From a bacterium (GTDB taxonomy: Bacteria; Patescibacteriota; Dojkabacteria; JAKAPS01; JAJZLI01), in NCBI GenBank assembly GCA_027371855.1, contig DAHXLB010000032.1, positions 10,844 through 74,843 on the forward strand: a stretch of DNA of 64,000 bases, written 5' to 3'. The position numbers and the translations under genes are program-made. The notes beneath the pieces are model-generated. The model worked only from the letters and a program-made list of their open reading frames with translations, did not search any database and was not told the DNA's origin. This document shows, one piece after another, positions 3,368 to 62,814 of the stretch. The first letter of the stretch is position 1. Each line of letters opens with the position of its first letter.

Positions 3368-4072
3368 CTATATTAAATCTGGCCTATTTTTATGTGTTTT
3401 TTCAATACTTTTTTTCCTCCTCCATTCTTTTATTTTTTCATGATTTCCGGACAACAATACTTTTGGAACGCTAAAACCATTAAACTCTTCTGGTCTTGTA
3501 TATTGGGGATGCTCTAATAAGCTCCTTCCCCTTTCAACTCCTTCAAGAAAAGACCTAGGTCCAAAAGATTCCTCTTTTAAAGACTCATTGTTTCCCAAAA
3601 CGTTTGGTAGGAGTCTTGATATTGAATCAATAATAACTAGGGCTGCTGGTTCCCCACCAGAGAGAACAAAGTCCCCTATTGAAAGCTCTATGTTCGTGTA
3701 ATTTACAATTCTCTCATCAAAACCTTCGTATCTTGAGCATATAATTGTAATTTCTTTTAGATTTGCTAAAAATTCTGCCACACTTTGAGTATACTTCTCT
3801 CCGGAGGCAGACAGCATTACAGAATAACTATCGGGGCTAGATGTTTTTTTTGTTGACTCCAAAGCCTTATACAAAACATCCGCTCTTAATATCATGCCCG
3901 CTCCCCCTCCATAAGGGGAATCATCTACTGATCCTCGTTTGTCATATGCAAAATCTCTTAGATTTATAATATTTAAAGAGAAAGCCTTTATATCTAAAGC
4001 TTTTTTTATAGCACCAAAAAGGATATTTGATCTAAAATACTCAGGATAGAGGGTAATTATATTAATTTTCAT
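3368..4072 (-). CDS. trmD: tRNA (guanine37-N1)-methyltransferase
   Basis: MKINIITLYPEYF...SVDDSPYGGGAGMIL is the canonical TrmD SPOUT-fold N-terminus with its AdoMet-binding glycine loop. 234 aa. Confidence 0.9.
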   Translation of the reverse strand: MKINIITLYPEYFRSNILFGAIKKALDIKAFSLNIINLRDFAYDKRGSVDDSPYGGGAGMILRADVLYKALESTKKTSSPDSYSVMLSASGEKYTQSVAEFLANLKEITIICSRYEGFDERIVNYTNIELSIGDFVLSGGEPAALVIIDSISRLLPNVLGNNESLKEESFGPRSFLEGVERGRSLLEHPQYTRPEEFNGFSVPKVLLSGNHEKIKEWRRKKSIEKTHKNRPDLI

Positions 4073-4498: not shown

Positions 4499-5095
4499 TT
4501 AGTTATAACTCCATACTACTGGATAACCTTTAGCATCAACAGTTACGCCTTGTTGCATTCCTGTTGCGAAAACAACAAATCTTGTTCCTGTTGAATTTTC
4601 TGCCATATAGATGTTACCTGAAGGGAAAGAACTTAGATATTGTGAAAGTTCATTACCAACGGCAGATCCTTGTGTTAATAGTATACAAGACGAGGATACT
4701 GTAACTGTAGCTGAAGGTACTGTTCCTGTCCCTGTAACACAATTAGGAACTCCAATTGAAGATCCTGTTAGTGAATATCCGTAAGCTGCAGCCGTGTTTA
4801 TCAATGGAGATGTAAGCTGTGTCAAACCACCTGGGTATTGACCTTGGTGATCGTTAGTATACATCAAAATTGCATGTGCAACTTGCTGAACATCTGTCTG
4901 CCTAGTAGAGTTATTTGCATCTGCAATTCTCCCTACTGGGTTAATTGCTACAAACACAACAAGTGCAAGTATTGCAATAATAACTATAACTATTAATATT
5001 TCAATCAAAGTGAAACCTTTGGAGCTGGCTCCTTTAGATCTAGATAAAGCTTTTGCTTCTTTGGGGCTAGCCCCTTTAAAATTAGTTTTTATCAT
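4499..5095 (-). CDS. pilA: type IV (major) pilin, prepilin with 27-aa leader
   Basis: The class III signal is ...SSKG|FTLIEILIVIVIIAILALVVFVAINP, with Gly at -1, Phe at +1 and Glu at +5, followed by a hydrophobic alpha1 helix and a C-terminal Cys pair. Confidence 0.8.
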   Translation of the reverse strand: MIKTNFKGASPKEAKALSRSKGASSKGFTLIEILIVIVIIAILALVVFVAINPVGRIADANNSTRQTDVQQVAHAILMYTNDHQGQYPGGLTQLTSPLINTAAAYGYSLTGSSIGVPNCVTGTGTVPSATVTVSSSCILLTQGSAVGNELSQYLSSFPSGNIYMAENSTGTRFVVFATGMQQGVTVDAKGYPVVWSYN

Positions 5096-5175: not shown

Positions 5176-5197
5176 TGATTATAAACCCGAAACCTTT

Positions 5198-13462: not shown

Positions 13463-13511
13463 TAGATGTTAACCTCCCAGAGGCTGACCTCCAGAGGTTG
13501 GTCTCCAGAGG
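13463..13511. repeat. GC-rich tandem array of four ~14-15 bp CCTC(C)NGAGG hairpin units
   Basis: AACCTCCCAGAGGCTG ACCTCCAGAGGTTG GTCTCCAGAGGCTAG CCTCCCGAGGCCAG. Each unit carries inverted CCTC/GAGG arms. The array sits between the stop of 13512..14132 and the start of 11350..13449. Confidence 0.7.
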
Positions 13512-14132
13512 CTAGCCTCCCGAGGCCAGTCTTAAAGGTATTTCAAAAAGTTGAACCTTAACATAAACATCATACCCTTCTTTGAGATTAACTTCTATAC
13601 TCTTTTGAATATACCCTGGAGAGGCCAATGTTATATTATAAGCTCCAGGAGGTAATATTTTTTCTAGGAAAGAAGAGGTTTTTATATATTTTTTATTAAT
13701 AAAAATTTCAGACTTTGTATTCACACTAAGATTTATTGAGGATGAACTAGAAAAGTTATTTTTAAAATAGAATATTGCACCAGAAGAAAAATTTGATGAA
13801 GGACCCATGTTCCATTCAATTATTGTCGCGTTGTTCCCTTCAAAAGGGATTGTCTCTAGAAATGGAGAGTAAAAATTTGAGGTAGATGCTAATCTTATTA
13901 TTTTTACAGAGTGTACCCCAGAACTTATATTGTGTACGGACAAAGGAGTTGTTCCATAATATTTGTTGTCAATATATACTTTTCCTTCTCCGCTTTTCAG
14001 GGTTACCACCAAAGAAGAAGTTCCTCCTTTTCGGTATATATTAAATATTTGTTTTGTTACTGTTGGCTCAATTATTATAACAATTAGGGCCAAAAGGAGG
14101 ACTAACATTATTTCGGGCAGTTTTCTTTTCAT
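13512..14132 (-). CDS. PEGA-domain secreted/anchored protein
   Basis: N-terminal TM/signal (IMLVLLLALIVIIIEP). Two PEGA-like segments: GKVYIDNKYYGTTPLSVHNISSGVHSVKI and SEIFINKKYIKTSSFLEKILPPGAYNITLASPGYIQKSIEV. Confidence 0.5.
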   Translation of the reverse strand: MKRKLPEIMLVLLLALIVIIIEPTVTKQIFNIYRKGGTSSLVVTLKSGEGKVYIDNKYYGTTPLSVHNISSGVHSVKIIRLASTSNFYSPFLETIPFEGNNATIIEWNMGPSSNFSSGAIFYFKNNFSSSSSINLSVNTKSEIFINKKYIKTSSFLEKILPPGAYNITLASPGYIQKSIEVNLKEGYDVYVKVQLFEIPLRLASGG

Positions 14133-14162
14133 TTGTCTAAATTATACTTTCTCTTTAGGTTC

Positions 14163-14219
14163 TTGACAAGACGTAGGAGGAGTGATAAGATATTGGCAGT
14201 TAATATTAAGCTTTGCTAA
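14163..14219 (+). promoter_or_regulatory. hrcA promoter (TTGACA-N17-TAAGAT) followed by a CIRCE-like 9-N9-9 inverted repeat
   Basis: TTGACA at 14163-14168 and TAAGAT at 14186-14191. TTGGCAGTT-AATATTAAG-CTTTGCTAA at 14193-14219, compared with the CIRCE consensus TTAGCACTC-N9-GAGTGCTAA. The arms are partially complementary (TTGGCA/TGCTAA) with an exact 9-nt spacer. The motif ends 7 bp before the hrcA ATG. Confidence 0.5.
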
Positions 14220-14225
14220 AAACAT

Positions 14226-14948
14226 ATGACTCCAAGGCAAGAAAGAATATTGGAATGTATAATCTTGGAGTTTATGCAGACAGCACAAGCCGTAGGATCG
14301 GTTTCTGTTGCAGATAAGTATAATATAAAAGCTTCTCCTGCAACTATTAGGAATGAAATGGCCGACCTTATAGGGCTTGGGTTCATTGAAAAAGAACATT
14401 TTTCTGCTGGTAGAGTTCCTACTTCCGTAGGATTTCGATACTACATAGAACATATGTTAAAAGAAGACGAAATGGGCTATGTGCAGGAGATGAATATAAA
14501 GGAAGGCTTCCATGATGCTAGATTTCAAAGAGACAAACTTTTAAGGACTGCGGTGGAAACGTTGTCTTCAAGTCTGAAATATGCAGCAGTGGCTCTGTTT
14601 GAGGATGCACTTTTTTACTCAGGTATTTCCGAAATTTTGGATTATCCTGAATTTGAAGATATCTCTGTTTTAAAAAATGTTGTTTCAGTGTTAGAGAATT
14701 ATAATATCTTGGAGTCTATTTTTGAAAAAGGGGTCGCATATGAGGCAGACGTGAAGGTTTTAATAGGAGAGGAATCTGGATTTAATAGTTTTAAAAATTC
14801 AGCAATTGTCTTCTCTGGGTTTAGACTTCACAGAGGAGAGCAGGGGTACATAGCAGTGATAGGGCCTTATAGGATGGATTACAAAAGGGTGTTTCCTGTT
14901 TTAAGATTTGTTACTGATTCCCTAGAAGAAGTAACCGCAGGATGGTAA
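14226..14948 (+). CDS. hrcA: heat-inducible transcription repressor HrcA (short form)
   Basis: N-terminal winged helix RQERILECIILEFMQTAQAVGSVSVADKY...SPATIRNEMADLIGLGFIEKEHFSAGRVPTSVGFRYY matches the HrcA family. It sits directly upstream of grpE-dnaK. At 240 aa it is shorter than the typical ~340 aa. Confidence 0.75.
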   Translation: MTPRQERILECIILEFMQTAQAVGSVSVADKYNIKASPATIRNEMADLIGLGFIEKEHFSAGRVPTSVGFRYYIEHMLKEDEMGYVQEMNIKEGFHDARFQRDKLLRTAVETLSSSLKYAAVALFEDALFYSGISEILDYPEFEDISVLKNVVSVLENYNILESIFEKGVAYEADVKVLIGEESGFNSFKNSAIVFSGFRLHRGEQGYIAVIGPYRMDYKRVFPVLRFVTDSLEEVTAGW

Positions 14949-15034: not shown

Positions 15035-15634
15035 ATGACAGAGAAAAAACAAAAAAAAGACCTAGGTCAAAAAGATTTAGATCCAAAGGGTCTGGACCCA
15101 AAAGTAGGAGATGTAACAGAAGAAGTTCTTGAGGAGATTGACAAAAGAGATGGAGAAATAAAATCTTTAAAAGAGGAACTGGAAAAAACAACAAATTTAC
15201 TAAAGAGTGCATTGTCTGATTATCAGAATTTAAAAAAGAGAACGGAAACGGAGAAGGATAATATGGTTGGGATAACGAATAGTTTGCTACTTCGTCAATT
15301 TTTAGAAATATCTGATGATATTTATACATACATTTCTCATCTTGAAAAGAGTGAGAAAGATGGGAATGAAAAAGTTAGTATCTCTGAAATAAAAAATGGA
15401 ATAAAGCTTATTTTTGATAAATGTAATGATATTGTCAAAAGTCAGGGGGCTCAGATTATGGAAGTTGCAGAAGGAGATACGTTCTCTCCTTTGCATCATG
15501 AAGTAATAGGGACAGTAAATGTTGAAGACCCAGAGAAAGAGAACAAGGTAATCCAAGTAGTAAGGGTTGGGTATGAGCAGAACGGAAAAGTTATAAGGGC
15601 AGCAAGAATAATTGTTGGAAAAAAAGAATCTTGA
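15035..15634 (+). CDS. grpE: nucleotide exchange factor GrpE
   Basis: Coiled-coil N-terminus and a GrpE C-terminal beta domain (VIQVVRVGYEQNGKVIRAARIIVGK). Position is hrcA-grpE-dnaK. The N-terminal KDLGQKDLDPKGLDPK is encoded by palindromic mini-repeats. Confidence 0.85.
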   Translation: MTEKKQKKDLGQKDLDPKGLDPKVGDVTEEVLEEIDKRDGEIKSLKEELEKTTNLLKSALSDYQNLKKRTETEKDNMVGITNSLLLRQFLEISDDIYTYISHLEKSEKDGNEKVSISEIKNGIKLIFDKCNDIVKSQGAQIMEVAEGDTFSPLHHEVIGTVNVEDPEKENKVIQVVRVGYEQNGKVIRAARIIVGKKES

Positions 15635-15692
15635 TTCAAGAATCTTGATTCAAGAATCTTGATTTAGAAATTAGTTTAGAAATTTAATTTAG
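15624..15692. repeat. tandem 14-bp palindromic repeat (AAGAATCTTGATTC x3) followed by a TTTAGAAATT(A) x3 repeat
   Basis: AAGAATCTTGATTCAAGAATCTTGATTCAAGAATCTTGATTTAG AAATTAGTTTAGAAATTTAATTTAG. It overlaps the grpE stop and lies upstream of dnaK. Confidence 0.7.
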
Positions 15693-15705: not shown

Positions 15706-17676
15706 ATGGCAAAAATATTAGGAATAGATTTAGGGACAACAAATTCAGCAATGGCTGTTATGGAAGGAGGGACACCTACTATAATAGAAAATAGCGAGGG
15801 TGCACGTACAACCCCTTCTGTTATAGCAATATTAAATGATAAATCTAGGGCAGTAGGTGTTACGGCAAAAAATCAGATGGTTCTAAATCCGAAGAATACT
15901 TTTTATTCTATAAAAAGACTTATAGGAAGAACATTTGACGACCCAGAGGTTCAGAGAGATGTAAAATTACTCCCATTTGAGATAAGAAAATCCGGAGGTG
16001 GAGGGATAGAAATTAAATTTGGAGATGAATGGTTGGCTCCAGAGGCAATTTCAGCAATGGTTTTGTCTAAACTAAAACAGGACGCAGAAAGTTTTCTTGG
16101 AGAAAAAATAACAGAAGCTGTAATTACAGTTCCTGCATACTTTGACGATTCTCAAAGGCAGGCAACCAAAAATGCCGGCAAAATAGCAGGCTTGGATGTA
16201 AAGAGAATAGTAAATGAACCTACTGCCGCAGCATTAGCTTATGGTTTTGATAAAAAAGGGGAACAGACAATTGCAGTATATGACCTTGGTGGAGGAACTT
16301 TTGATATTTCAATATTAGAACTTGGAGATGGAGTTTTTGAGGTTATATCAACGAATGGGGATACCCATCTTGGAGGAGATGATTTTGACAGAAAAATAAT
16401 TGATTACTTGGCTGAAGATTTTAAAAAAACTAACGGCGTTGATCTAAGGAAAGACTCTTCTGCGCTACAAAGACTTAAAGAGGCTGCTGAAAAAGCAAAG
16501 ATAGAACTTTCTTCTACGGCTCAAACACAAATAAATATTCCTTTCATAACCGCAGACGCATCTGGCCCAAAACATTTAAACATAACTATGACAAGAGCTC
16601 AGCTTGAGAATCTGGTGGGCGACTTAGTAAAAGAAACTATGGAGCCAGTAAAAAAAGCCTTGGCTGATGCAAAAAAGACTCCTTCTGACATTGATGAAAT
16701 TATTCTTGTAGGAGGGATGACTAGAATGCCAGCGATAGTTGATGCAGTAAAAGAATTTTTTAAGAAGGAGCCAAATAAAAGCGTGAACCCAGACGAAGTT
16801 GTTGCTGTTGGAGCAGCAGTTCAAGCTGGAGTCCTAGCAGGAGATGTTAGAGATGTAACATTACTTGACGTAACACCCCTATCTTTAGGACTTGAAACGT
16901 TGGGAGGTGTATCCACAAGACTTATAGAAAGGAATTCTACAATCCCTATTCAAAAAAAACAGGTATTTACTACTGCCGCAGATAGCCAGACTTCCGTTGA
17001 GATACATATATTGCAAGGAGAAAGGGAGATGGCAGCAGATAACAAAACATTGGGGAGATTTATTCTTGACGGTATTGCTCCCGCTCCAAGAGGTATTCCT
17101 CAAGTAGAGGTGGCCTTTGATATAGATGCAAACGGTATATTAAAAGTATATGCTTCTGATAAGGCTACTGGTAAAAGTCAGCATATTACTGTAACGGCAA
17201 ATACTGCTTTATCAGACGAAGAGGTTGAGAAACTCCTTAAAGAAGCAAAGGAACATGAAGAAGAAGACAGGGCAAAGAAAGAGGGTGTTGAGATTAAAAA
17301 TACTGCAGAAACGGTAATATTTTCATCTGAAAAATTTGTAGATGAAAACAAAGATAAAATTCCGGAAGATAAAAAAACTCAACTAGCCGATAAAATTGCA
17401 AATCTAAAAGAAGTTTCTTCAAAAGAACCGGTGTCAAAGGAAGAAATTCAAACTGCAATAAATGAGCTTGAAACTTTGATGCAAGAGATTGGAAGTTCTA
17501 TGTATCAACAGTCTGAGCCTCAAGGAGGAGAGCCTCAAGGAGGCGAACCACAGGGTGGAGAGCATCAGGAAGGTGACCCAGAATCAGGATCTTCAGAAGG
17601 GGGGCAAACTCCGGGGGAGCAAACTCCACCAGAAGATGGAGGAGAACCTGTTGCTAAAGAAGGAGAGGTGCTTTAG
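15706..17676 (+). CDS. dnaK: molecular chaperone DnaK (Hsp70)
   Basis: [26 protein letters not shown] and the full Hsp70 architecture are present. The C-terminal tail carries EPQGG pentapeptide repeats. Confidence 0.97.
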
Positions 17677-18836: not shown

Positions 18837-19826
18837 ATGGATAAACATGAAATAGCAATAATTGGACTTGGAAAAATGGGATTAAATCTAGCCTTGAATC
18901 TTCAGGATAAGGGGATGTATGTTTACGGTTATAATAGAAGTGAAGATGGTCGGGTTGAGGCATCAAAAAATGGTATAAAGACAGCTACTTCAACAGAAGA
19001 GCTAATTTCTTTTTTTGAAGGGAGAAAAAAGGTTATCTGGATAATGGTTCCTCAGGGAGCGCCTGTAGAGGCAGTTTTATTTGATGACAATGAGGGTATA
19101 GTTAAACAACTAAAAACCGAAGATTTAATAATTGATGGGGGAAACTCATATTTTAGAGATTCAATTTCAAGGCATGAAAAACTTGAAGCTGCAGGTATTG
19201 ATTTTTTAGATTGTGGAACTAGTGGTGGAATGCTTGGAGCAAGATCAGGTGCATGTTTGATGATTGGGGGAGACCAAAATGTTTTTGATAGTCACAAATG
19301 GATTTTTGAGGCAGTTGCAGAGAAAAATGGATATTTATATATTGGACCTGCCGGGTCTGGACATTATGTTAAGATGATCCACAACGCTATAGAGTATGGG
19401 ATGATGCAGTCAATAGCAGAAGGACTTAATCTTATAAAAAATGGGGAGTACAAAGATATAGACATAAAAAATCTCTTAGGCGTATGGAATCATGGCAGTA
19501 TTATAGAATCATATCTAACAAAGATTACTCAAGAACAGATGGGTCAATATTCTCCAAATTTGGATGAAATTGAAGGCATAGTAGAGGACAATGGAGAGGG
19601 GGCATGGACGTTGAAAGAGGCCATTGATAAAAGGGTGCCTTTTGAGACAGTATCTCACGCATTGTTTTCTAGATTTTCATCAAAAGGGAATAGTCTTTAT
19701 GCAAATAAAGTTTTGGCTCTAATGAGAAATGGCTTTGGGGGGCATAGGCTGATCAAAGAGAATAATGGTTCTCCCGTCTTAGGTCCAATAGACCAAGATC
19801 CAAAGGACCAAGAACTAAGAGTCTAG
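18837..19826 (+). CDS. gnd: 6-phosphogluconate dehydrogenase-like (short, decarboxylating, NAD(P)-binding form)
   Basis: IAIIGLGKMGLNLALNL Rossmann motif, followed by IIDGGNSYF and a GTSGG...GACLMIGGD block typical of the short 6PGDH family. The 3' end carries an in-frame palindromic repeat. Confidence 0.75.
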   Translation: MDKHEIAIIGLGKMGLNLALNLQDKGMYVYGYNRSEDGRVEASKNGIKTATSTEELISFFEGRKKVIWIMVPQGAPVEAVLFDDNEGIVKQLKTEDLIIDGGNSYFRDSISRHEKLEAAGIDFLDCGTSGGMLGARSGACLMIGGDQNVFDSHKWIFEAVAEKNGYLYIGPAGSGHYVKMIHNAIEYGMMQSIAEGLNLIKNGEYKDIDIKNLLGVWNHGSIIESYLTKITQEQMGQYSPNLDEIEGIVEDNGEGAWTLKEAIDKRVPFETVSHALFSRFSSKGNSLYANKVLALMRNGFGGHRLIKENNGSPVLGPIDQDPKDQELRV

Positions 19827-19873
19827 GCTCAAAGGACCTAGGCCCAAGGATCTAGATCCAAGGGGTCTGGACC
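19791..19873. repeat. cluster of CTAG/CTGG-centred palindromic mini-repeats with 15-bp period
   Basis: GACCAAGATCC AAA GGACCAAGAAC ... GGACCTAGGCCC AA GGATCTAGATCC AAG GGGTCTGGACC. It spans the stop codon of the 6PGDH-like gene and the following intergenic region. Confidence 0.7.
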
Positions 19874-19915
19874 TAAGCATCTATATGCAAAATTAATTTT
19901 ATTAAAAAAAGTATT

Positions 19916-34780: not shown

Positions 34781-36080
34781 ATCCGGTGTAAAAATTAGCA
34801 AAGTTGTAATTCTAGGTTCTGGATTTGGAGGTGTTAACGCTTATTTAAACCTACATAAATTAACTCACAAAAATAAATTAGTTGAATTTACCATAGTTTC
34901 TGATAAAAACTATTTTCTCTTTACTCCGTTGATCCATGAAGTTGCCACAGGAACCTTGGTCCCTGAAGATGTTATATCCCCAGTTAGAGGTAATATAGAT
35001 TGTTGTTTGACCGATTTTATTCTTGATACTGTTAAATCTATTGATTTGCAAGAAAATAAGGTTATTCTTAAAAATGGAGAGATCAAATATGACTATCTTG
35101 TTATAGCAACAGGGGCTTCATCTAATTTTAGGAATATTCCTGGTGCAAAGGAGTTTACTTTGCCTTTAAAAACATTAGAAGATGCAGTTTTAATAAAGAA
35201 TAAAATAATTGGGTTATTTGAAGAAAGAGAAGAGGAGGGAGAAAAAAAACAAATTAGGATTGCAATTGTGGGAGGAGGGCCTACTGGGATTGAAATTGCA
35301 ACTGAAATATCTGAATTTACTGATACTTTAATACCAAATTATTCCATATTTAAAAATAAAAAAACGGATATAGATATAAGAATTTTAAATGCCTCAGAGA
35401 ATTTCCTCCCTAATTTTCCTAAAAGATTAAAAAAAGAAGTATTTAATCTTTTTAGACTTGGAAAATCTCCTATATCTTTGATTTTGAATGCAAGGGCGAA
35501 AGAGGTTTTAGAAAATAAAATAATGTTAGAGGATCTAGATCCAGAGAATCTAGATTCAGAGCACCTAGGTGTAGAGAGCCTAGACAATAATATTTCTCAA
35601 AAAGAGAAAAGTGTTGATTTTGACATTGCTATTTGGGCAGCAGGTGTTAAGGCCAATGTTTCTATAATAGAGTCAAATCTTACTAAAACGGGAAGAATAT
35701 TGGTGACGGACAATCTAAATATTAGAGGGTTTGATAATGTCTTTGCAATAGGGGATGTTGCAGATTTTGAAAGTACATCCTTGTCTCAGCTCGCACAGAC
35801 AGCAGTTGACGAGTCTGAGGTTTGCGCTAGAAATATATATAATTTAATTACAGAAAAACCACTTTTACCTTTCGTATTTAAACAGAAAGGACTGATCTTA
35901 TCATTGGGGCATAATAATGCAGCTATCAGTATTGGAAAGAGTGTGTTTATGGGGAAATTCGCATGGTTTTTATGGAGGTATTTTTATCTATCTCAAATGT
36001 TTGGGAGAGGTTCTAAAGCAAAAATTCTCAGTAACTGGATACTTAATGAGTTTTCTCCTAGAGATATATCCAAAATTTAA
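34752..36080 (+). CDS. ndh: type II NADH dehydrogenase / pyridine nucleotide-disulfide oxidoreductase
   Basis: KVVILGSGFGGVNA is the first FAD GxGxxG motif, and IAIVGGGPTGIE is the second dinucleotide motif. An in-frame palindromic repeat insertion occurs at 35531-35585. Confidence 0.75.
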   Translation: MMTKTVGENESGVKISKVVILGSGFGGVNAYLNLHKLTHKNKLVEFTIVSDKNYFLFTPLIHEVATGTLVPEDVISPVRGNIDCCLTDFILDTVKSIDLQENKVILKNGEIKYDYLVIATGASSNFRNIPGAKEFTLPLKTLEDAVLIKNKIIGLFEEREEEGEKKQIRIAIVGGGPTGIEIATEISEFTDTLIPNYSIFKNKKTDIDIRILNASENFLPNFPKRLKKEVFNLFRLGKSPISLILNARAKEVLENKIMLEDLDPENLDSEHLGVESLDNNISQKEKSVDFDIAIWAAGVKANVSIIESNLTKTGRILVTDNLNIRGFDNVFAIGDVADFESTSLSQLAQTAVDESEVCARNIYNLITEKPLLPFVFKQKGLILSLGHNNAAISIGKSVFMGKFAWFLWRYFYLSQMFGRGSKAKILSNWILNEFSPRDISKI

Positions 36081-47269: not shown

Positions 47270-48769
47270 TTATTCTTGAGGGGGCATTTTATATGTCCCG
47301 TTATAAATGTCAACTAATATTTTTAAAACTTCTGATTGTGCCTGTTTCAAAGTTATTGTTTGCTCAATCACGTTATCTAAAATTCCTGATACATTTGCAT
47401 AATCTCCCATAAGCCAAGAGTGAGAAGTGGGCGCCATTTTTACGAATGCAGACATATAATTATATGTTGTAGCAAGAGATGCCATATCTGCCCTTGGGAA
47501 GACATTTGCTATTGGTTCGTTCTCAATCTTTGTTTCTGTATTTGCAAGTGAGAGTAGACTTTGTTTTTGTTCTAAAAATTTTATAAATTTCCATGCTGTG
47601 TTAGGGTGTAAAGATCCACGAGGTACAGCTCTTGCAAAATATAATGAGAGGTTTACCGTTTGTCCAGGTAGCTGAGGAGGTTCCATGACCCCCAAGTTAA
47701 GATTCTTGTTTATAGTTAATATATTTGATATTTGCCAATAAGGAGCATAGACCATAGCAACTGTACCATTTGCAAAAGCAGATATTGCAGATGGAAATTG
47801 TGATGACCACCCGTCAATTTTTGATATTTGAAGATATTCATTTAGAGCATCAGCTCCATTAACTCCATTTGCAAAAGTTACTTGGTTTTGTGAAGTCATT
47901 TTTGTTCCTGACATTAACATAAATAAGGTTAAAATATTTGAAGCATTGTATACATTTGATGTATTTGAACCTATATCAATAGCAGCTTGAGTAACTTGAC
48001 CAGAGCTATTTTGAACTACAAGTTTAGGTATCTCTGATACAAATGTATTGAAGTTTGAAGATGGTGCAGTTAATCCCGCACTTTGGAATTCAGTCTTGTT
48101 GTACAGCAGTGCTAAGCCATCATAGGAGTTGGGTGCAGCATAAATTTGATTATTCAAAGTTAAATCTTGGGTTGCTGTGCTATAGAATTCATTTTGGAAA
48201 TTACTCATATTGTATATCGAAGATGGTGCAGGATATAGATAATTCTTAACCAGGGGAAGGTAAGTATTCCCTATAGTTACTATATCAGGAAGACTTACGC
48301 CACTTTTTAATTTATTTACAAGAAAACTCTCATAGTATTGATCTGGTATTTGCACATAATTAATTGAAACATTAGGATTCTGTTTCTCAAATTGGGAGAT
48401 TAGGGATGTATACGATGACCCTGGTTGGCTAATTCCCCACATAGTTAGACTTATTTTATTATTAGTTTTAGTAATTGAAATTCTTCCCATACCTATCATG
48501 TATATGTATATAGCACCTACTATTATAATGACTAAAGACACTATTATTAGTACCCAAACCAATGTTCTTATCTTATGTTTTATCTTAGCCACCTCCTCTT
48601 CTGTAGGAAGGTTACTTTGGAATTGGATATTCCCAGTATCTTGAGGTATTGGAGCACTTTGCACAAATGTACTTGGAGCTTGCCCTGGAGTTTGCTCGGG
48701 AGTTTGCTCGGGAGTTTCATTAGAGTTTTGTGTTGGTATAGTTTGTTCTCCTATTTGTTGGGTTTCCAT
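47270..48769 (-). CDS. membrane-anchored extracellular solute-binding-protein-like protein with a disordered N-terminus
   Basis: A TPEQ-repeat N-terminus is followed by a TM (VWVLIIVSLVIIIVGAIYIYMI) and a ~400-aa domain resembling family-1 sugar SBPs (LALLYNKTEF..AGL, MVYAPYW). No cognate importer permease or ATPase is adjacent. Confidence 0.5.
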   Translation of the reverse strand: METQQIGEQTIPTQNSNETPEQTPEQTPGQAPSTFVQSAPIPQDTGNIQFQSNLPTEEEVAKIKHKIRTLVWVLIIVSLVIIIVGAIYIYMIGMGRISITKTNNKISLTMWGISQPGSSYTSLISQFEKQNPNVSINYVQIPDQYYESFLVNKLKSGVSLPDIVTIGNTYLPLVKNYLYPAPSSIYNMSNFQNEFYSTATQDLTLNNQIYAAPNSYDGLALLYNKTEFQSAGLTAPSSNFNTFVSEIPKLVVQNSSGQVTQAAIDIGSNTSNVYNASNILTLFMLMSGTKMTSQNQVTFANGVNGADALNEYLQISKIDGWSSQFPSAISAFANGTVAMVYAPYWQISNILTINKNLNLGVMEPPQLPGQTVNLSLYFARAVPRGSLHPNTAWKFIKFLEQKQSLLSLANTETKIENEPIANVFPRADMASLATTYNYMSAFVKMAPTSHSWLMGDYANVSGILDNVIEQTITLKQAQSEVLKILVDIYNGTYKMPPQE

Positions 48770-53556: not shown

Positions 53557-55746
53557 ATGAATCTACCATTTAAGAAACAACAAGGAAACAAAAATAATCA
53601 AGCAGGGGTAGCTAACCAAGAGGTCACTACACAGCCTAGTGATACTCAGACTCCATACACACAGGGAAGCTGGTCTCAAGGGGATTTGCCTCAAGGGGGT
53701 TTGCCTCAAGGAGGCTTACCTCAAGGGATGGGAAGTCTTGATGATCAAACAGCGAAAGATCCGTTGATAGAATTTGGGAATGGAATCAATTCAATTAAAG
53801 ATATTATAGCTCCAGCATCAATTGAAGTAGATTTTTCTCATATTAAAATAGGTGAGAAATACTATAAAACGTATTTTGCAATCGCATATCCAAGATATGT
53901 TGTTCCTAACTGGTTATCGCCATTAATAACATTTGAACACTCTATTGATATAAGTATGTTCTACTATCCTATAAGTTCCAATACCGTTCTTATACAACTA
54001 AGGAGGAAAATTGCTGAAATGGAGGCTACTACAAATACTATGATAGATTCAGGTAAAGTTTTAGACCCTAATTTAAAAGTTGCTCTAGAAGATGCAAAGC
54101 AATTGCAGGATGATCTTGCAAAAGGGTCTGAAAGGTATTTCCATTTTGCTTTGTATGTATCAATAAGAGCAGACACCTTAGAGGAGCTTAATGATATATC
54201 TAAAAATCTTGAGGCTACCTTAGGAGCGATGTCTCTTATTATTAAGCCAGCAACTCTGCAAATGGAAGAAGGTTTCAAATCTACTCTGCCTGAGGGTAGC
54301 GACAAAATGTACTATACGCATAATATGGATACTACATCTATAGCTACAACCTTTCCTTTTGTATCTTCAGAGCTAACATCAGACAGGGGTGTTTTATATG
54401 GTATTAATAAGGCTAATAAGAGTCTTGTGGTTTTTGATAGATTTGATCTTGAAAATGCAAATTCTGTAATTTTTGCAAAGTCTGGAGCAGGTAAAAGTTT
54501 TCTTGTAAAACTTGAAGCTTTAAGATCTCTTATGTTAGGAACCCAGATTATAATAATAGACCCAGAAAGGGAATATGAGACTTTATGTAAGGCAATGAAT
54601 GGATCATATATTTCTTTTTCACAAGATGGAGATTCAAAAATCAATCCATTTGATTTGTCTGGGGTTTATGAAGAAGGAGAAGATGAATTAAGGTTCAAAA
54701 TTCTTTCCTTACATGGACTTTTTAAGGTTATGCTTGGAGGAGAAGAGGGTGGGTTGACTAATATGGAAAATGCTATTTTAGATAAAGCATTAATTTTAAC
54801 ATATAGAGATAAGGGGATAACTTTTGATCCTTCAACGCAGGTAAAGGATCCTCCATTGATGGAAGATTTGTACAAAATCCTTCTTTCAATGGAAGAGGAA
54901 GAGGCTCATTCTTTAGCACAAAGATTAGAGAAATTTGTCAAAGGTTCTGCTTCTGGAATCTTTGATCAACATACAAATGTAGATATAAATAATCAATTTA
55001 TGGTGTTTTCAATAAGAGATTTATCAGATGAATTAAGACCAATAGCCATGTTTTTAATGTTGGACTTCATATGGACAAGAGTTAAAAAAGAACTAAAGAG
55101 AAGATTATTCATAATAGATGAGGCTTGGATATTAATGCAATACCCAGATTCAGCACAATTTGTTTATGCAGTATCAAAAAGAGCAAGGAAGTATTATCTT
55201 GGTCTTACTACTGTATCCCAAGATGTGGATGACTTTTTATCTAATGATTATGGAAAGGCTGTTGTTACAAATTCATCGATACAGATTTTATTAAGACAAT
55301 CTCCTACTGCTATAGACCACCTTTCTGATGTGTTTTATTTATCTGCAGGGGAGAAGAATTTATTGTTGTCTGCAGAAATTGGAGAAGGTATATTTTTTGT
55401 TGGAGCAAACCATGTAGCAATACAAATATATTCTTCAGAGTATGAATATACATTAATAACTACAAATCCAGAAGAAATATTAAAGATGAGAGCAGAAGGG
55501 GCATCATTGGATAGGATAGTTCCAAACACAATAGCAGAAGAAGATAGTAAAACTGTATTAGACGATGATGAAGATGTTAAACCTCAACCTCAAGAGCAAT
55601 CAGAAATATCTCAAAGTAAAGTGTCAGAGCCTCCCAAGGATGTTGAAACTAAAGAGGTATCTGATGAGGATATAGGTAAGGAAACATTAGCTCCAGATAG
55701 TGATGGAGAAAATACACAGGTACAATATAACAGCATTGTTAGTTAG
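53557..55746 (+). CDS. virB4: VirB4/TraC/TrbE-family T4SS ATPase (split VirB4, part 2)
   Basis: APASIEVDFSHIKIGEKYYKTYFAIAYPRYVVPNWLSPL is the VirB4 central-N motif. Walker A VIFAKSGAGKSFLVKLEA, Walker B RRLFIIDEAWILM and ARKYYLGLTTVSQDVDDF are present. LPQGG repeats occur in the N-terminal tail. Confidence 0.85.
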   Translation: MNLPFKKQQGNKNNQAGVANQEVTTQPSDTQTPYTQGSWSQGDLPQGGLPQGGLPQGMGSLDDQTAKDPLIEFGNGINSIKDIIAPASIEVDFSHIKIGEKYYKTYFAIAYPRYVVPNWLSPLITFEHSIDISMFYYPISSNTVLIQLRRKIAEMEATTNTMIDSGKVLDPNLKVALEDAKQLQDDLAKGSERYFHFALYVSIRADTLEELNDISKNLEATLGAMSLIIKPATLQMEEGFKSTLPEGSDKMYYTHNMDTTSIATTFPFVSSELTSDRGVLYGINKANKSLVVFDRFDLENANSVIFAKSGAGKSFLVKLEALRSLMLGTQIIIIDPEREYETLCKAMNGSYISFSQDGDSKINPFDLSGVYEEGEDELRFKILSLHGLFKVMLGGEEGGLTNMENAILDKALILTYRDKGITFDPSTQVKDPPLMEDLYKILLSMEEEEAHSLAQRLEKFVKGSASGIFDQHTNVDINNQFMVFSIRDLSDELRPIAMFLMLDFIWTRVKKELKRRLFIIDEAWILMQYPDSAQFVYAVSKRARKYYLGLTTVSQDVDDFLSNDYGKAVVTNSSIQILLRQSPTAIDHLSDVFYLSAGEKNLLLSAEIGEGIFFVGANHVAIQIYSSEYEYTLITTNPEEILKMRAEGASLDRIVPNTIAEEDSKTVLDDDEDVKPQPQEQSEISQSKVSEPPKDVETKEVSDEDIGKETLAPDSDGENTQVQYNSIVS

Positions 55747-58168: not shown

Positions 58169-58569
58169 TGGATAAGGTAAAAGTTTATAAAATAAAAAGC
58201 TTAAGAAATAATTATTTCTATATAACATCTGATATTTTTGTTGTGCTATTTTCAACACCTCCACTATTTGTTTTGATAATATCTTCTCTTGATATACATA
58301 TAAAAATATTCTTAGGTTCTTCTATTGTAGCCCTTTTTTATTTTCTAATAAAACAAAATTTTAGAGGTAGGCCTACATATTTATATATACTGGATCTACT
58401 TAAATATTTATTTAAAAATAAAAAATATATTTTCTTATACAATATTTTTGAAGTAGATTTACAAGAATCACTGATTCCAGAATCAATGATTCCCAAAATC
58501 AAAGTTCAATACTTAAAATTTTTAAATAATAAAATTAGTTTTAAAGGGGCTGGTCCCAAAGAGTCATAA
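58168..58569 (+). CDS. PrgI/VirB3-like small membrane protein
   Basis: 133 aa with two TM helices after a basic N-terminus. GRPTYLYILDLLKYLFKNKKYIF resembles the PrgI C-terminal motif. It sits directly upstream of the split VirB4. Confidence 0.4.
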   Translation: MDKVKVYKIKSLRNNYFYITSDIFVVLFSTPPLFVLIISSLDIHIKIFLGSSIVALFYFLIKQNFRGRPTYLYILDLLKYLFKNKKYIFLYNIFEVDLQESLIPESMIPKIKVQYLKFLNNKISFKGAGPKES

Positions 58570-58573: not shown

Positions 58574-59137
58574 ATGAAGAGAATTAATGAATTTTACCCA
58601 ATAATTGATGTTGTTGGAGGAACAATAATTCTAAAAGATCATTTTTATATGAGGATAATAGAAATTTTCCCTTTACATTTTGTATTATCAGAGGAAGATG
58701 TAAAGAATGATTTCATAAAAAAGTACAAAGAATTTTTAAAAGGGATACATATACCAATAGATATAACAGTAGTATCTAGGGAAATAGAAGAAAGTGAAGT
58801 TTTGAAATATATAAAAAATATTAAAGGACCTAGGGCCACAGGACCTGGGTCCAAAGGATCTAGATCTAAATCTGGAGAGATAAATTTACAAAAATTATAT
58901 AAAGACAGTTTTAAAATATTTTATAAGCAAAATAAAATTTATTCTCAAAGATTTTTTATAACGTATAAAATAAAATATCCCAGGAAACATTTATTTTTTA
59001 AAAAGGAATTAGACAATATAGACAATTCTTTGAAAATACATGATAAACAAATTTTATTCTTACTTTCTAAAACTCCACTACGTACAAAAATTATAAATAC
59101 AAGAGGAGAAATTATTAATATTTTAAGTTTTATATAA
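58574..59137 (+). CDS. stand-alone VirB4 N-terminal-domain-like protein (split VirB4, part 1, paralogue of 52856..53539)
   Basis: YPIIDVVGGTIILKDHFYMRIIEIFPLHFVLSEEDVKNDFIKKYKEFLKGIHIPIDITVVSREI is clearly alignable with 52856..53539. It contains an in-frame palindromic-repeat insertion (KGPRATGPGSKGSRSKSGE). The stop is 3 bp before the ATPase ORF. Confidence 0.5.
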   Translation: MKRINEFYPIIDVVGGTIILKDHFYMRIIEIFPLHFVLSEEDVKNDFIKKYKEFLKGIHIPIDITVVSREIEESEVLKYIKNIKGPRATGPGSKGSRSKSGEINLQKLYKDSFKIFYKQNKIYSQRFFITYKIKYPRKHLFFKKELDNIDNSLKIHDKQILFLLSKTPLRTKIINTRGEIINILSFI

Positions 59138-61677: not shown

Positions 61678-62814
61678 ATGGATGATTATTATAAAATTTT
61701 AGGTGTATCAAAGGATTCCGATATAAAAGAAATCAAAAGAGCATATAGGAAGCTTGCAGGAGAACACCATCCTGATAAGAATAAATCTTCAGATGATAAA
61801 AAATTTAAAGAGATTAATGAAGCATATTCAGTTTTGTCTGATCCACAAAAAAGAGCTAGTTATGATAGATTCGGGAATGCTGACTTTGCAAATCAACAAG
61901 GAGGTCCTAGTGGTGGGTATACTTCTGGAAGGCAGGCTGGTGGTGCCACTGGTGGCTTTAGGTATGAAACTTCTAGTGCTAATTTTGGAGGATTTGAAGA
62001 TATATTTTCTGATCTTTTTGGTGGAGGATTCTCACAAACTGGTACTGGGTCAGGATCACAATCTAGATCTAGGTCTGGGACTCCAGATTTATCTGGAGAT
62101 GATATGGAAATATATATCAATGTTGACCTAAAAGATATAGTTTTTGGCGCAGAAAAACAGCTTTCTTTCTATGCTATGGTAAAATGTGCAACATGTAGAG
62201 GAATTGGATCTTCAACATTTAAAACTGAAACATGCTCTACTTGTAAGGGAAGTGGGCGCATAAGGAAGGTGTCACAAAGCTTCTTTGGAAATGTTGCAGT
62301 TGAAGAGGCATGTTCCACATGTAAGGGTACAGGAAAGATAATAAGAGATAAGTGTAGAATATGTGGAGGTTCTGGAAGAGTTAAACAATTAAAAAAAATG
62401 GTTGTTAAAATTCCAAAAGGCGCAAATGATGAAAGCATTTTAAAATTTCAAAAGGATGGAGGAGCAGGATTGAATGGAGGAGAAAGTGGAGACTTATATA
62501 TTCATATTAAGGTTAACCAAGACTCTAGATTCAGGAGGGATGGTAATGATTTAAAAGTGGAATCTCATATTAGTATTTCAACTGCAGTACTTGGGGGTGT
62601 ATTAAATATTGATACTCTATATGGAGCAATAAATTTGAAAATTCCACAAGGGACACAAAGTGGGGAAGTTTTTAGAATTAAACAAAAGGGTATTCCATAT
62701 CTTCATGGAAGAGGAATTGGAGATTTATATGTTACAGTTAAAGTAAACATTCCTAAAAGACTTTCAGGGAATGAGAAAAAACTATTTGAAACCTTAAAAA
62801 CTTTAGAGTATTAA
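61678..62814 (+). CDS. dnaJ: molecular chaperone DnaJ
   Basis: J-domain DYYKILGVSKDSDIKEIKRAYRKLAGEHHPDKN, a Gly/Phe-rich linker, four CxxCxGxG zinc-finger repeats and a C-terminal substrate domain. Confidence 0.9.
   Translation: MDDYYKILGVSKDSDIKEIKRAYRKLAGEHHPDKNKSSDDKKFKEINEAYSVLSDPQKRASYDRFGNADFANQQGGPSGGYTSGRQAGGATGGFRYETSSANFGGFEDIFSDLFGGGFSQTGTGSGSQSRSRSGTPDLSGDDMEIYINVDLKDIVFGAEKQLSFYAMVKCATCRGIGSSTFKTETCSTCKGSGRIRKVSQSFFGNVAVEEACSTCKGTGKIIRDKCRICGGSGRVKQLKKMVVKIPKGANDESILKFQKDGGAGLNGGESGDLYIHIKVNQDSRFRRDGNDLKVESHISISTAVLGGVLNIDTLYGAINLKIPQGTQSGEVFRIKQKGIPYLHGRGIGDLYVTVKVNIPKRLSGNEKKLFETLKTLEY

What the first reader, a model, noticed from the sequence alone, without database searches (positions are those of the whole stretch)
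15059..15099. Palindromic mini-repeats inserted in-frame into the GrpE N-terminus (KDLGQKDLDPKGLDPK)
GACCTAGGTC-AAAAA-GATTTAGATCC-AAAG-GGTCTGGACCC-AAAA lies inside the grpE ORF with a 15-nt (5-codon) period, encoding DLGQK-DLDPK-GLDPK. The element preserves the reading frame. This implies either selection for 3n-length insertions or tolerance of a disordered N-terminal tail.
Basis: seen in the sequence. Interest (0 to 1): 0.55.

Follow-up and report, generated by a model that had tools for sequence, protein, structure and literature searches.

The report
Tandem mini-palindrome arrays inside genes
The 45-base segment at the start of grpE is real and is one of about a dozen arrays of tiny tandem palindromes (14-15 bases per unit) scattered through this Patescibacteria genome, which survive inside genes only where the protein is floppy and the unit length is a multiple of three.

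Summary
Window 15059-15103 holds three 15-nt units (GACCTAGGTC / GATTTAGATCC / GGTCTGGACCC, each followed by an A-rich spacer), in frame in grpE (residues 9-23). This part lies in a tail that AlphaFold2 predicts to be disordered and that falls outside the GrpE domain.

It is not peculiar to grpE. The same architecture recurs about a dozen times in the 64-kb window: 4-bp complementary arms, a 4-nt core (CTAG, CTGG or TTAG) and a 2-3-nt spacer.
- Inside ORFs the period is always 15 or 12. In intergenic spacers it is 14.
- The same DNA units are translated in two different frames (DLDPK or GSRSK). The third frame gives the stop codon of two genes.
- The arms covary, including through non-synonymous compensations.
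- Near-identical multi-unit blocks occur at unlinked loci.
- The arrays vary among four congeneric genomes and are absent from more distant syntenic relatives.

"Inserted" is only partly right. One unit is ancestral, and in this genome two units replace 30 nt with no net change in length.

Best explanation: a DNA-level, hairpin-prone minisatellite family that spreads by slippage, template switching or ectopic copying and is then filtered by selection. It is a new variant of known kinds (RPE, REP, PARCEL, Borg amino-acid tandem repeats). Interest is moderate.

The parts
15059..15103 (+). The reported array: three 15-nt units in grpE codons 9-23 (DLGQK DLDPK GLDPK), each a 10-12-nt (quasi)palindrome plus an A-rich spacer.
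15035..15634 (+). grpE ORF (199 aa). The Pfam GrpE domain covers residues 33-196 and residues 1-26 are predicted to be disordered.
15626..15665 (+). Array of three 14-nt units (GAATCTTGATTCAA) that starts at the grpE stop codon (the TGA inside the first unit) and fills the grpE-dnaK spacer. Present in L005 and L009, absent from L007.
13473..13525 (-). Array of four 14-nt units (CCTCTGGAGG type on the sense strand) at the stop codon of the PEGA-domain gene and in the spacer to the next gene. A roughly 57-nt insertion absent from L005, L007 and L009. Its RNA fold is -38.7 kcal/mol, z = -4.9.
19767..19888 (+). 122-nt window-specific block of eight units at the 3' end of the 6-phosphogluconate dehydrogenase gene. 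Units 1-3 (period 15) extend the ORF, then a 14-nt step puts the TAG of a CTAG core in frame as the stop codon, and units 5-8 are non-coding. It is followed by an A/T-only palindrome, AAAATTAATTTT (19889-19900). Units 6-7 match grpE units 2-3 at 23 of 25 positions.
35529..35585 (+). Four 15-nt units inside the NDH-2 gene (EDLDP ENLDS EHLGV ESLDN): GGATCTAGATCC / GAATCTAGATTC / CACCTAGGTG / GAGCCTAGAC. They form a loop insertion relative to solved structures and distant homologues, and are 33-45 nt longer than in congeneric relatives.
5018..5089 (-). Five 15-nt hairpin units with different arms in the prepilin leader (KTNF KGASP KEAKA LSRSK GASSK before G|FTLIE). A distant relative has an 8-residue leader.
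58823..58879 (+). Four 15-nt units in ORF 58574-59137, read in the other open frame (KGPRA TGPGS KGSRS KSGE). The orthologous array in L011 is longer and its units covary with these.
58465..58493 (+). Two 15-nt units, GAATC-N3-GATTC, near the C-terminus of ORF 58168-58569. L011 has one unit with compensated arms (GAAGC-AGA-GCTTC).
58531..58560 (+). Two-unit block AAAATTAGTTTT AAA GGGGCTGGTCCC AAA at the 3' end of ORF 58168-58569. It lies within a 27-nt insertion absent from L011 and matches the pilin-leader block at 28 of 33 positions.
62053..62100 (+). Irregular units of the same family (ATCTAGATC, GGTCTGGGAC, ATCTGGAGAT) in the Gly/Phe-rich linker of DnaJ (SQSRSRSGTPDLSGD). Includes a 21-nt insertion relative to L011.
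3548..3567 (-). Single unit AAAAGACCTAGGTCCAAAAG inside the TrmD gene (read as FGPRSF). It matches grpE unit 1 plus flanks at 22 of 23 positions.
17515..17631 (+). Arrays in the DnaK C-terminal tail: EPQGG x3-4 (CCTC-AAG-GAGG hairpin units, 17515-17574) and GEQTP x2 (GGAG-CAAA-CTCC, 17599-17631). Present in all four congeneric genomes with differing copy numbers.
53677..53733 (+). LPQGG x3.5 array of period 15 (CCTCAAGG(A/G)GG units) in the N-terminal region of a VirB4/TraG-like ATPase. A looser member of the family.
48674..48718 (-). EQTP x3.6 array of period 12 (GGGAG-CAAA-CTCCC units) near the N-terminus of a solute-binding protein. A looser member of the family.

Best explanation
The grpE segment is one array of a genus-specific family of tandem mini-palindromes. 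Each unit is a 12-nt palindrome (4-bp complementary arms around a 4-nt core, usually CTAG, CTGG or TTAG) plus a 2-3-nt A-rich spacer.

Shown:
- The family exists at the DNA level and takes no account of reading frame.
- Arrays are gained, lost, lengthened and partly overwritten between closely related genomes.
- Multi-unit blocks recur at unlinked loci.
- The arms stay complementary through compensatory changes.
- Arrays persist in ORFs only with periods that are multiples of three, and only in tails, leaders, linkers or loops.

Inferred:
- Arrays arise and grow by hairpin-assisted replication slippage between the A-rich spacers.
- They are homogenised or seeded by template switching or ectopic copying between similar arrays.
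- Arm complementarity is kept either because only hairpin-competent units keep amplifying or because quasi-palindrome template switching copies one arm onto the other.
- Purifying selection then removes everything except in-frame arrays in tolerant protein segments, arrays in spacers, and arrays that end an ORF at their own stop codon (the TAG in CTAG, the TGA in CTTGA).

For GrpE the consequence is a re-worded, still disordered N-terminal tail. No GrpE-specific function is required.
For: - Family and architecture.
- A covariance model finds arrays it was not trained on, at the grpE 3' end (41.7 bits), the ORF 58168 C-terminus (34.9 bits) and the pilin leader (33.9 bits).
- Enrichment over shuffles.
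- Covariation of the four arm pairs across 36 units: 78-89% paired, score 0.534 against 0.209 +/- 0.028 in shuffles (0 of 500 reach it), and at most 0.226 in slid controls.
- Non-synonymous compensations in NDH-2, DLDP / NLDS / HLGV = GGAT..ATCC / GAAT..ATTC / CAC..GTG.
- Compensations between orthologues, GAATC..GATTC against GAAGC..GCTTC and GGAC..GTCC against GGAT..ATCC.
- Two reading frames are used for the same units: DLDPK in grpE, NDH-2 and the gnd tail; GSRSK/GPRA/GASP in ORF 58574, DnaJ, TrmD and the pilin leader.
- The third frame supplies the stop codons of gnd and the PEGA-domain gene.
- Period 15 or 12 in all 21 coding arrays, and 14 in all 6 non-coding arrays.
- Gain, loss or replacement between congeners at 6 or more loci, and absence from syntenic outgroups.
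- Paralogous blocks: 15074-15098 against 19849-19873, 2 matches where 0.00 are expected; grpE unit 1 against the TrmD unit; the pilin leader against the ORF 58168 3' end.
- No asymmetry between G.T and A.C mismatches on the sense strand, 7 against 9, as expected for a DNA-level process.
- Tolerant protein contexts: the disordered GrpE tail and an NDH-2 loop absent from solved structures.
- A mutational route that homogenises inverted-repeat arms is documented (PMC8604942, PMC7202029).
Against: - Slippage alone does not explain arrays that appear at sites with no unit in any relative (the PEGA-gene 3' end), or near-identical blocks on opposite genome strands 53 kb apart. Some copying between loci must be added, and its mechanism is unknown.
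- The arms are G+C-rich (arrays are 39-57% G+C in a 32% genome). The grpE 3' array and the pilin-leader array are conserved across species that differ by about 13% in DNA. Both facts could indicate selection for a function.
- RNA folding z-scores are more negative on the sense strand in 4 of 6 arrays.
- The preferred 14-nt step is unexplained.
- Only about 64 kb of this genome plus about 100 kb of relatives was examined, and the units are not statistically independent.
Confidence: 0.55

Rival explanations
1. The arrays are functional nucleic-acid elements in the manner of REP/BIME. Tandem hairpins in the transcript (or cruciform-prone DNA) near gene boundaries would stabilise mRNA segments, modulate coupling between adjacent genes, or bind a protein. 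Selection would maintain arm complementarity.
For: - Covariation of the arms.
- G+C-rich arms in an A+T-rich genome.
- Many arrays sit at or just after stop codons or in the first ~30 codons.
- The grpE-dnaK spacer array and the pilin-leader array are conserved across species.
- Neighbouring units pair into long stems with significant z-scores on the sense strand, -3.2 to -4.9.
Against: - G.T and A.C mismatches on the sense strand are equally common, 7 against 9.
- The grpE 5' array itself folds no better than shuffles, z = -1.3.
- No T-run follows the arrays, whereas a canonical intrinsic terminator follows dnaK.
- Presence or absence differs between sister species at most loci.
- There is no Rfam match.
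Confidence: 0.2
2. The arrays are copies of an ultra-small mobile element (like a MITE, RPE or REPIN) moved by an enzyme encoded elsewhere in the genome. Tandem structure would arise from repeated insertion next to existing copies.
For: - Near-identical two- and three-unit blocks at unlinked loci, one pair on opposite genome strands.
- Filled sites in the window correspond to empty sites in relatives at the PEGA-gene 3' end, the gnd 3' end, the ORF 58168 3' end and DnaJ.
- The consensus unit GGATCTAGATCC recurs in four genomes, including a 52%-identity relative, where about 0.002 copies per 64 kb are expected from composition (my own calculation).
Against: - No terminal inverted repeats or target-site duplications were recognised.
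- Unit number and unit sequence differ at every locus.
- No transposase, RAYT or HUH-type protein was found among the window ORFs scanned against Pfam (the remaining ORFs and the rest of the genome were not examined).
- A 15-nt module is far below the size of any known mobile element.
Confidence: 0.15
3. The repeat is selected at the peptide level: a DL(D/G)PK short linear motif or a spacer in the GrpE tail. The DNA palindromy would be a by-product of the codons for D-L-D-P.
For: The DLDPK-type reading recurs in grpE, NDH-2 and the gnd tail. From general knowledge of the DnaK-GrpE system, the GrpE N-terminal tail is reported to influence substrate release from DnaK, so tail sequence could matter.
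Against: - The same DNA units are read in a second frame as GSRSK/GPRA/GASP in four other proteins.
- They occur untranslated in spacers.
- Arm compensations change the amino acids, DLDP to NLDS to HLGV.
- Synonymous GAT to GAC changes pair with D to G replacements.
- Close relatives have ENKKKVLDSS in the same place.
Confidence: 0.05
4. The pattern is a chance pattern or an assembly artefact.
For: The three grpE units are only about 70-80% alike and fall below the Tandem Repeats Finder score threshold.
Against: Identical sequence is found in four independent assemblies or read sets. The statistics argue against chance.
Confidence: 0.01

Closest known systems
Rickettsia palindromic elements (RPEs)
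   Same: Both are palindromic, hairpin-capable repeats, dispersed in a reduced genome. Both are frequently inserted in frame into unrelated housekeeping genes at positions compatible with protein structure, and both also occur in non-coding DNA (PMC10969869).
   Different: RPEs are single elements of about 100-150 bp with a conserved family sequence and a conserved encoded peptide. Here the module is 14-15 nt, occurs as tandem arrays of 2-8 units, is read in two frames, and its arms differ from unit to unit. The host is a Patescibacterium, and there is no sequence relation.
REP / BIME / REPIN elements
   Same: Both are short palindromes, often clustered, lying between co-transcribed genes. Both are able to form hairpins and show compensatory arm evolution (PMC3733652, PMC3116915).
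   Different: REPs are 20-40 nt, extragenic by definition, carry a GTAG or CGTC tag and are tied to RAYT transposases. Here the palindromes are 12 nt, commonly intragenic, carry no consistent tag, and no RAYT was seen.
[quoted passage not shown]
   Same: Both are tandem intragenic repeats whose coding DNA shows dyad symmetry. In both, distribution suggests intragenomic shuffling (PMC2996958).
   Different: The PARCEL unit is a 25-residue (75-nt) amphipathic domain in proteins of unknown function, often membrane-targeted. Here the units are 5 residues long, hydrophilic and disordered, and inserted into housekeeping proteins.
Borg tandem repeats (amino-acid tandem repeats, aaTRs)
   Same: Both are lineage-specific, rapidly changing tandem repeats. 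In both, units inside ORFs are always divisible by three while intergenic units mostly are not. Both are A-rich and both create intrinsically disordered protein segments (PMC9879509).
   Different: Borg repeat units are near-perfect direct repeats of many lengths, unique to each locus, and palindromy is not a feature. Here the units share one palindromic architecture and a preferred length of 14-15 nt, they diverge while keeping arm complementarity, and they recur between loci.
HIP1-type highly iterated palindromes of cyanobacteria
   Same: Both involve a short palindrome, strongly over-represented, found in coding DNA in several frames (PMC4390886).
   Different: HIP1 is a fixed 8-mer (GCGATCGC), dispersed singly and linked to methyltransferase sites. 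Here only the architecture and a CTAG-like core are shared, and the units are tandem.

Membership tests
GrpE (the host gene) | Match to the GrpE domain model, and position in the hrcA-grpE-dnaK operon. | tested here: met
   PF01025 matches at E = 1e-27 over residues 33-196. Synteny is hrcA-grpE-dnaK. PDB GrpE chains match from residue 29-32 onward.
Rickettsia palindromic element (RPE) | A single element of about 100-150 bp with a conserved family sequence. | tested here: not met
   Units are 14-15 nt, arrays are 30-122 nt, and unit sequences vary.
Rickettsia palindromic element (RPE) | Palindromic, and inserted in frame into unrelated protein-coding genes at structurally tolerant sites. | tested here: met
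   In-frame arrays occur in grpE, NDH-2, the pilin leader, DnaJ, TrmD and the DnaK and gnd tails.
REP / REPIN | An imperfect palindrome of 20-40 nt, extragenic. | tested here: not met
   The palindromes are 12 nt, and most arrays are intragenic.
REP / REPIN | A GTAG or CGTC tetranucleotide tag at one end. | tested here: not met
   By eye, GTAG lies near only 2 of about 10 arrays (after the grpE 5' array and before the PEGA-gene array). By my own estimate that is about what chance would give. No consistent tag was seen.
REP / REPIN | Association with a RAYT (IS200/IS605-like Y1 transposase). | tested here: inconclusive
   None was found among the window ORFs scanned against Pfam or among the genes called. 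Some window ORFs and the rest of the genome were not available or not scanned.
PARCEL | A 25-residue amphipathic repeat domain. | tested here: not met
   Units are 5 residues long and hydrophilic.
PARCEL | Tandem coding repeats whose DNA has dyad symmetry. | tested here: met
Coding/non-coding tandem repeats of the Borg aaTR type (VNTR-like minisatellites) | Head-to-tail direct repeats. Unit length divisible by three in ORFs but not in intergenic DNA. | tested here: met
   All 21 coding arrays have period 15 or 12, and all 6 non-coding arrays have period 14.
Coding/non-coding tandem repeats of the Borg aaTR type (VNTR-like minisatellites) | Lineage-specific, with copy number differing between close relatives, and creating disordered protein segments. 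| tested here: met
Coding/non-coding tandem repeats of the Borg aaTR type (VNTR-like minisatellites) | Near-perfect unit identity, and unit sequences unique to each locus. | tested here: not met
   Most arrays are 70-90% alike internally, and units or blocks are shared between loci.
Intrinsic terminator | A G+C-rich hairpin followed by a T-run on the sense strand. | tested here: not met
   None of the arrays is called as a terminator on its sense strand. A canonical terminator is found after dnaK at 17693-17720.

The most novel reading that the evidence does not exclude
These arrays may be a previously undescribed class of ultra-small dispersed genetic element. It would be a '12 + 3' palindromic module that proliferates as tandem arrays and is copied between unlinked loci in one Patescibacteria genus. 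It would colonise even essential chaperone genes, with arm complementarity actively maintained (by hairpin-dependent amplification or by selection on a structure) rather than inherited passively.
Probability: 0.25. Interest if true: 0.7.

Novelty: new variant of a known kind. Interest (0 to 1): 0.55.

Why it matters
If the pattern holds genome-wide, it shows how a purely DNA-level repeat process writes new disordered segments into conserved proteins of a streamlined CPR bacterium: GrpE, DnaK, DnaJ, TrmD, NDH-2 and a prepilin leader.

It comes with an unusually clean natural control. Period 15 inside ORFs against period 14 outside demonstrates frame filtering by selection. The same units read in two frames, plus a stop in the third, demonstrates indifference to the encoded peptide.

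It also has practical uses:
- It gives a compact system for testing hairpin-driven slippage and template switching in organisms thought to have reduced DNA-repair capacity.
- It warns annotators that low-complexity tails in these genomes are repeat-derived.
- It offers potential strain-typing markers for an uncultivated genus.

Tried and rejected
- A strict scan (perfect stems of 4 bp or more with at least 2 G-C pairs) found only 3 arrays against 0.33 expected and missed the grpE array. A scan allowing any 4-bp stem was swamped by A+T-rich noise. Including TTAG cores also added noise.
- Overall CTAG frequency is not elevated: 160 observed against about 157 expected. The signal lies in context and spacing, not in CTAG count.
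- RNA thermometer or heat-shock regulation idea for grpE: the array starts 25 nt downstream of the start codon, folds no better than shuffles, and the same arrays occur in unrelated genes. No canonical CIRCE element lies upstream of hrcA within 3 mismatches.
- Terminator idea: no T-runs follow the arrays.
- Known RNA families and tRNA-derived origin: no Rfam match at gathering thresholds and no tRNA or tmRNA gene.
- Wider distribution: the two-unit pattern GGATCTAGATCC-N2-4-GRNYCTRGRNYC gave only 12 hits in the metagenome collection. Most are unrelated contigs of 43-69% G+C, although L015 and L018 carry arrays of their own.
- Literature searches found analogues (PARCEL, Borg repeats, RPE, REP, HIP1, quasi-palindrome template switching) but no description of 14-15-nt palindromic tandem units in Patescibacteria. 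The held library is incomplete, so this is absence of evidence only.
- Within-population copy-number variation: three other assemblies of the same species have identical arrays.
Full report
**1. The observation**

Window 15059-15103 reads GACCTAGGTC AAAAA GATTTAGATCC AAAG GGTCTGGACCC AAAA. It lies in the 199-codon ORF 15035-15634 (+), which is grpE: PF01025 matches at E = 1e-27 over residues 33-196, and the gene sits between hrcA (14226-14948) and dnaK (15706-17676).

The segment encodes residues 9-23, DLGQK-DLDPK-GLDPK, preceded by K8. Unit 1 is a perfect 10-nt palindrome. Units 2 and 3 miss perfection by one T/G position next to the centre. The spacing is exactly 15 nt.

The identical sequence is found in four independent assemblies or read sets, so it is not an assembly artefact. 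The organism is an uncultivated Patescibacteria (CPR) bacterium with about 32% G+C.

**2. It is one member of a family**

Tandem Repeats Finder on the whole window shows that 9 of the 12 arrays scoring 50 or more have period 14 or 15, and that most units are palindromic. A consensus can be read from the arrays:
- 4-bp complementary arms;
- a 4-nt core, which is CTAG in 14 of 36 units, CTGG in 7 and TTAG in 3;
- a 2-3-nt spacer, usually A-rich on the sense strand.

The consensus is AAA-GGAT-CTAG-ATCC-AAA.

Members in the window:

| Location | Coordinates |
|---|---|
| grpE 5' end | 15059-15103 |
| grpE stop codon and grpE-dnaK spacer | 15626-15665 |
| 3' end of a PEGA-domain gene | 13473-13525, minus strand |
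| 3' end of gnd | 19767-19888 |
| a loop of NDH-2 | 35529-35585 |
| a prepilin leader | 5018-5089, minus strand |
| ORF 58168-58569 | 58465-58493 and 58531-58560 |
| ORF 58574-59137 | 58823-58879 |
| DnaJ Gly/Phe-rich linker | 62053-100 |
| TrmD, a single unit | 3548-3567 |

Looser relatives of the family lie in the DnaK tail, in a VirB4-like ATPase and in a solute-binding protein.

A covariance model built from six arrays, four of them from the window, recovers arrays it was not trained on: the grpE 3' array (41.7 bits), the ORF 58168 C-terminus (34.9 bits) and the pilin leader (33.9 bits).

**3. More than chance**

- Arrays of at least 3 hairpins (arm of 3 bp or more, 4-nt loop, spacing 13-16 nt) number 7 in the window against 1.49 on average in shuffles, with a maximum of 5 in 100 shuffles.
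- CT[AG]G cores with a neighbouring core 14-16 nt away have arms of 3 bp or more in 9 of 23 cases, against 29 of 459 for solitary cores (p = 1.7e-5). Spacing peaks at 15 and 30 nt.
- Overall CTAG frequency is normal.

**4. The palindromy is a nucleic-acid property, not a by-product of the peptide**

(a) Covariation. I took 36 units selected by array membership and register and counted pairs. The four inner arm pairs are 78-89% paired, with 4-12 double-sided changes each. The covariation score is 0.534 against 0.209 +/- 0.028 in shuffles (0 of 500 reach it) and at most 0.226 when the partner column is slid. The fifth pair is unpaired.

(b) Compensations override the protein. In NDH-2 the successive units GGATCTAGATCC / GAATCTAGATTC / CACCTAGGTG encode DLDP / NLDS / HLGV. 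In grpE a synonymous GAT to GAC change pairs with a D to G replacement.

(c) Orthologous units compensate between species. GAATC..GATTC in the window corresponds to GAAGC..GCTTC in L011, and GGAC..GTCC corresponds to GGAT..ATCC.

(d) The same units are read in two frames. They read as DL(D/G)PK in grpE, NDH-2 and the gnd tail, and as GSRSK/GPRA/GASP in ORF 58574, DnaJ, TrmD and the pilin leader. The third frame contains TAG, which is the actual stop codon of gnd and of the PEGA-domain gene. The TGA of CTTGA is the stop codon of grpE.

(e) The units also occur untranslated in spacers.

**5. Frame filtering**

I counted arrays in the window and in four related loci. All 21 coding arrays have period 15 or 12. 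All 6 non-coding arrays (4 independent loci, with four different unit sequences) have period 14.

The gnd tail shows the rule in miniature. The spacing is 15, then 15, which keeps the ORF open. Then a 14-nt step puts the TAG of the next CTAG core in frame and the ORF ends.

**6. Tolerant sites**

- AlphaFold2 gives pLDDT below 50 for GrpE residues 1-26, with the first helix starting at residue 29.
- Solved GrpE structures align only from residue 29-32 onward.
- The NDH-2 array falls in a gap of the alignments to solved NDH-2 structures and to homologues at 41-55% identity.
- The other arrays lie in a cleaved prepilin leader, the DnaJ Gly/Phe-rich linker, the stretch of TrmD just upstream of its conserved YTRP motif (an inter-domain linker, from my recollection of E. 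coli TrmD), and C-terminal tails.

**7. Comparative history**

Nucleotide identities of dnaK, hrcA and tal give the tree (window,(L007,(L005,L009))). Identity is 83-95% among the four genomes (83-88% between the window and each of the others). The outgroups L025, L026 and L012 are at 68-79%.

| Locus | State in the four congeners |
|---|---|
| grpE 5' end | L005 and L009 have one unit (GGACATTRGTCC) followed by ENKKKVLDSS, 199 aa in total. L007 has three units plus ENKKAKVDS, 209 aa. The window has three units and no ENKK segment, 199 aa. Window units 2-3 therefore occupy exactly the 30 nt that encode ENKKKVLDSS in L005 and L009. |
| grpE-dnaK spacer array | Present in the window, L005 and L009. 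Absent from L007. |
| PEGA-gene 3' array | About 57 nt, window only. |
| gnd 3' block | 122 nt, window only. |
| DnaK EPQGG array | Copy number varies. |
| ORF 58168, ORF 58574, DnaJ | Differ between the window and L011 by 15, 27, 21 nt and more. |
| NDH-2 array | The window has 33-45 nt more than L027 and L028. |

The outgroups keep the same synteny but have no unit in grpE, a 24-nt grpE-dnaK spacer, an 8-residue pilin leader and no G+C-containing hairpin arrays. The family is therefore genus-level and dynamic, although some arrays (the grpE 3' array and the pilin leader) have persisted since the species diverged.

**8. Copying between loci**

The 25-nt two-unit block of grpE (15074-15098) recurs at the gnd 3' end (19849-19873) with 23 of 25 identities, where 0.00 matches are expected. 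The whole three-unit arrays align. Both are specific to the window lineage.

Two further pairs:
- grpE unit 1 with its flanks matches the TrmD unit at 22 of 23 positions.
- The pilin-leader block AAAACTAATTTT-AAA-GGGGCTAGCCCC-AAA matches, at 28 of 33 positions, a block on the opposite genome strand in the 3' end of ORF 58168. That block lies within a 27-nt insertion absent from L011.

The window grpE array is closer to its own paralogue than to the orthologous L007 array (20 of 25). "Replacement by copying from a paralogous array" therefore explains the unchanged length better than "insertion" does.

**9. Mechanism**

The evidence establishes a DNA-level, frame-agnostic, hairpin-correlated repeat process followed by selection.

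I infer hairpin-assisted slippage between the A-rich spacers for growth. I infer template switching or ectopic conversion between similar arrays for spread and homogenisation. Quasi-palindrome template switching is a documented way of homogenising inverted-repeat arms (PMC8604942, PMC7202029).

The equal numbers of G.T (7) and A.C (9) arm mismatches on the sense strand argue against RNA-specific selection. Several observations keep a functional, REP-like reading alive:
- more negative folding z-scores on the sense strand in 4 of 6 arrays;
- G+C-rich arms;
- two conserved arrays.

The arrays are not intrinsic terminators and match no Rfam family. No transposase was seen among the window ORFs scanned, but some ORFs and the rest of the genome are unexamined. 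The preferred 14-nt step and the origin of arrays at previously empty sites remain unexplained.

**10. Comparison with known systems**

- RPEs share in-frame insertion of palindromic DNA into housekeeping genes (PMC10969869), but they are about ten times larger and are not tandem.
- REP/REPIN elements share clustered hairpins between genes (PMC3733652, PMC3116915), but they are extragenic, tagged and linked to RAYT transposases.
- PARCELs share dyad-symmetric coding tandem repeats (PMC2996958), but their units are 75 nt.
- Borg tandem repeats share the rule of three-divisible units in ORFs and other lengths in spacers, A-richness and the creation of disordered regions (PMC9879509), but they are not palindromic.

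None of these families' defining features is fully met. I found no description of this architecture in the held literature.

**11. Verdict**

The finding is a new variant of known kinds of repeat, of moderate interest (0.55). The main value lies in the genome-wide pattern rather than in GrpE itself.

Noticed in passing
window 34092-34115: A perfect 24-nt palindrome, GATTTTAATCCTAGGATTAAAATC, lies in the 150-nt divergent spacer between a T2SS-F/PilC-like gene (32792-34039, minus strand) and a GGDEF gene (34190-34780, plus strand). It is a candidate operator, and it also has a CTAG centre.
   Followed up: partly
window 14142-14226: hrcA is present, but no canonical CIRCE element (TTAGCACTC-N9-GAGTGCTAA) was found within 3 mismatches anywhere in the window. 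Upstream of hrcA there is a promoter-like TTGACA-17-TAAGAT (14163-14191), whose -35 hexamer sits in the palindrome TCTTGACAAGA, and a weak inverted repeat TTGGCAGTT-N9-CTTTGCTAA.
   Followed up: partly
window 17693-17720: A canonical bidirectional intrinsic terminator (AAAAAGGGGGAGTTTATTCCCCCTTTTT) lies between dnaK and the convergent ORF 17733-17948. It shows that this organism uses ordinary terminators.
   Followed up: no
window 5985-8943: dnaA and dnaN lie here, and the cumulative GC skew has its minimum at about 4-6 kb. The window therefore probably spans the replication origin.
   Followed up: no
window 51077-60766: A cluster encodes a PrgI-like protein and two VirB4/TraG-type P-loop ATPases, resembling a type IV secretion or conjugation system. 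Several of its proteins carry the tandem arrays or other low-complexity repeats.
   Followed up: partly
L005 13875-13931; L007 9148-9183; L011 1556-1621, 1848-1898 and 10845-10875: The related genomes have lineage-specific arrays of their own at other sites. Examples are GAACC-N-GAGGTTC x3.8 at the 5' end of gnd in L005 and TCTTGACATACATG x2.6 upstream of hrcA in L007. Some share the word TTCAAGAACC with window arrays at 15626 and 52384.
   Followed up: partly
L002 and L003 (other assemblies of the same species), dnaK: dnaK is called as two genes (327 + 199/180 aa) in these assemblies. Each assembly differs from the window by only one or two 1-nt gaps over the region compared. This is probably a homopolymer assembly error or a real frameshift variant.
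   Followed up: no
L015 (Ga0129333_10100616) about 2470-2580; L018 about 40-110: Unrelated metagenome contigs of higher G+C (48-60%) carry tandem arrays of CTCTAGATCC(C)AAAG or GGATCTAGATCC units with a period of about 15-16 nt. Similar arrays may therefore arise independently elsewhere.
   Followed up: no
L012 11187-11204: A single consensus unit, AAGGATCTAGATCCAA, sits immediately upstream of a Shine-Dalgarno sequence (AAGGAGGTG) and a start codon in a relative at 52% identity that otherwise lacks arrays.
   Followed up: no
window 5153-5180: A 13-nt direct repeat, TTGTCAAGCGTGA x2.2, lies in the spacer between the two adjacent pilin genes.
   Followed up: no
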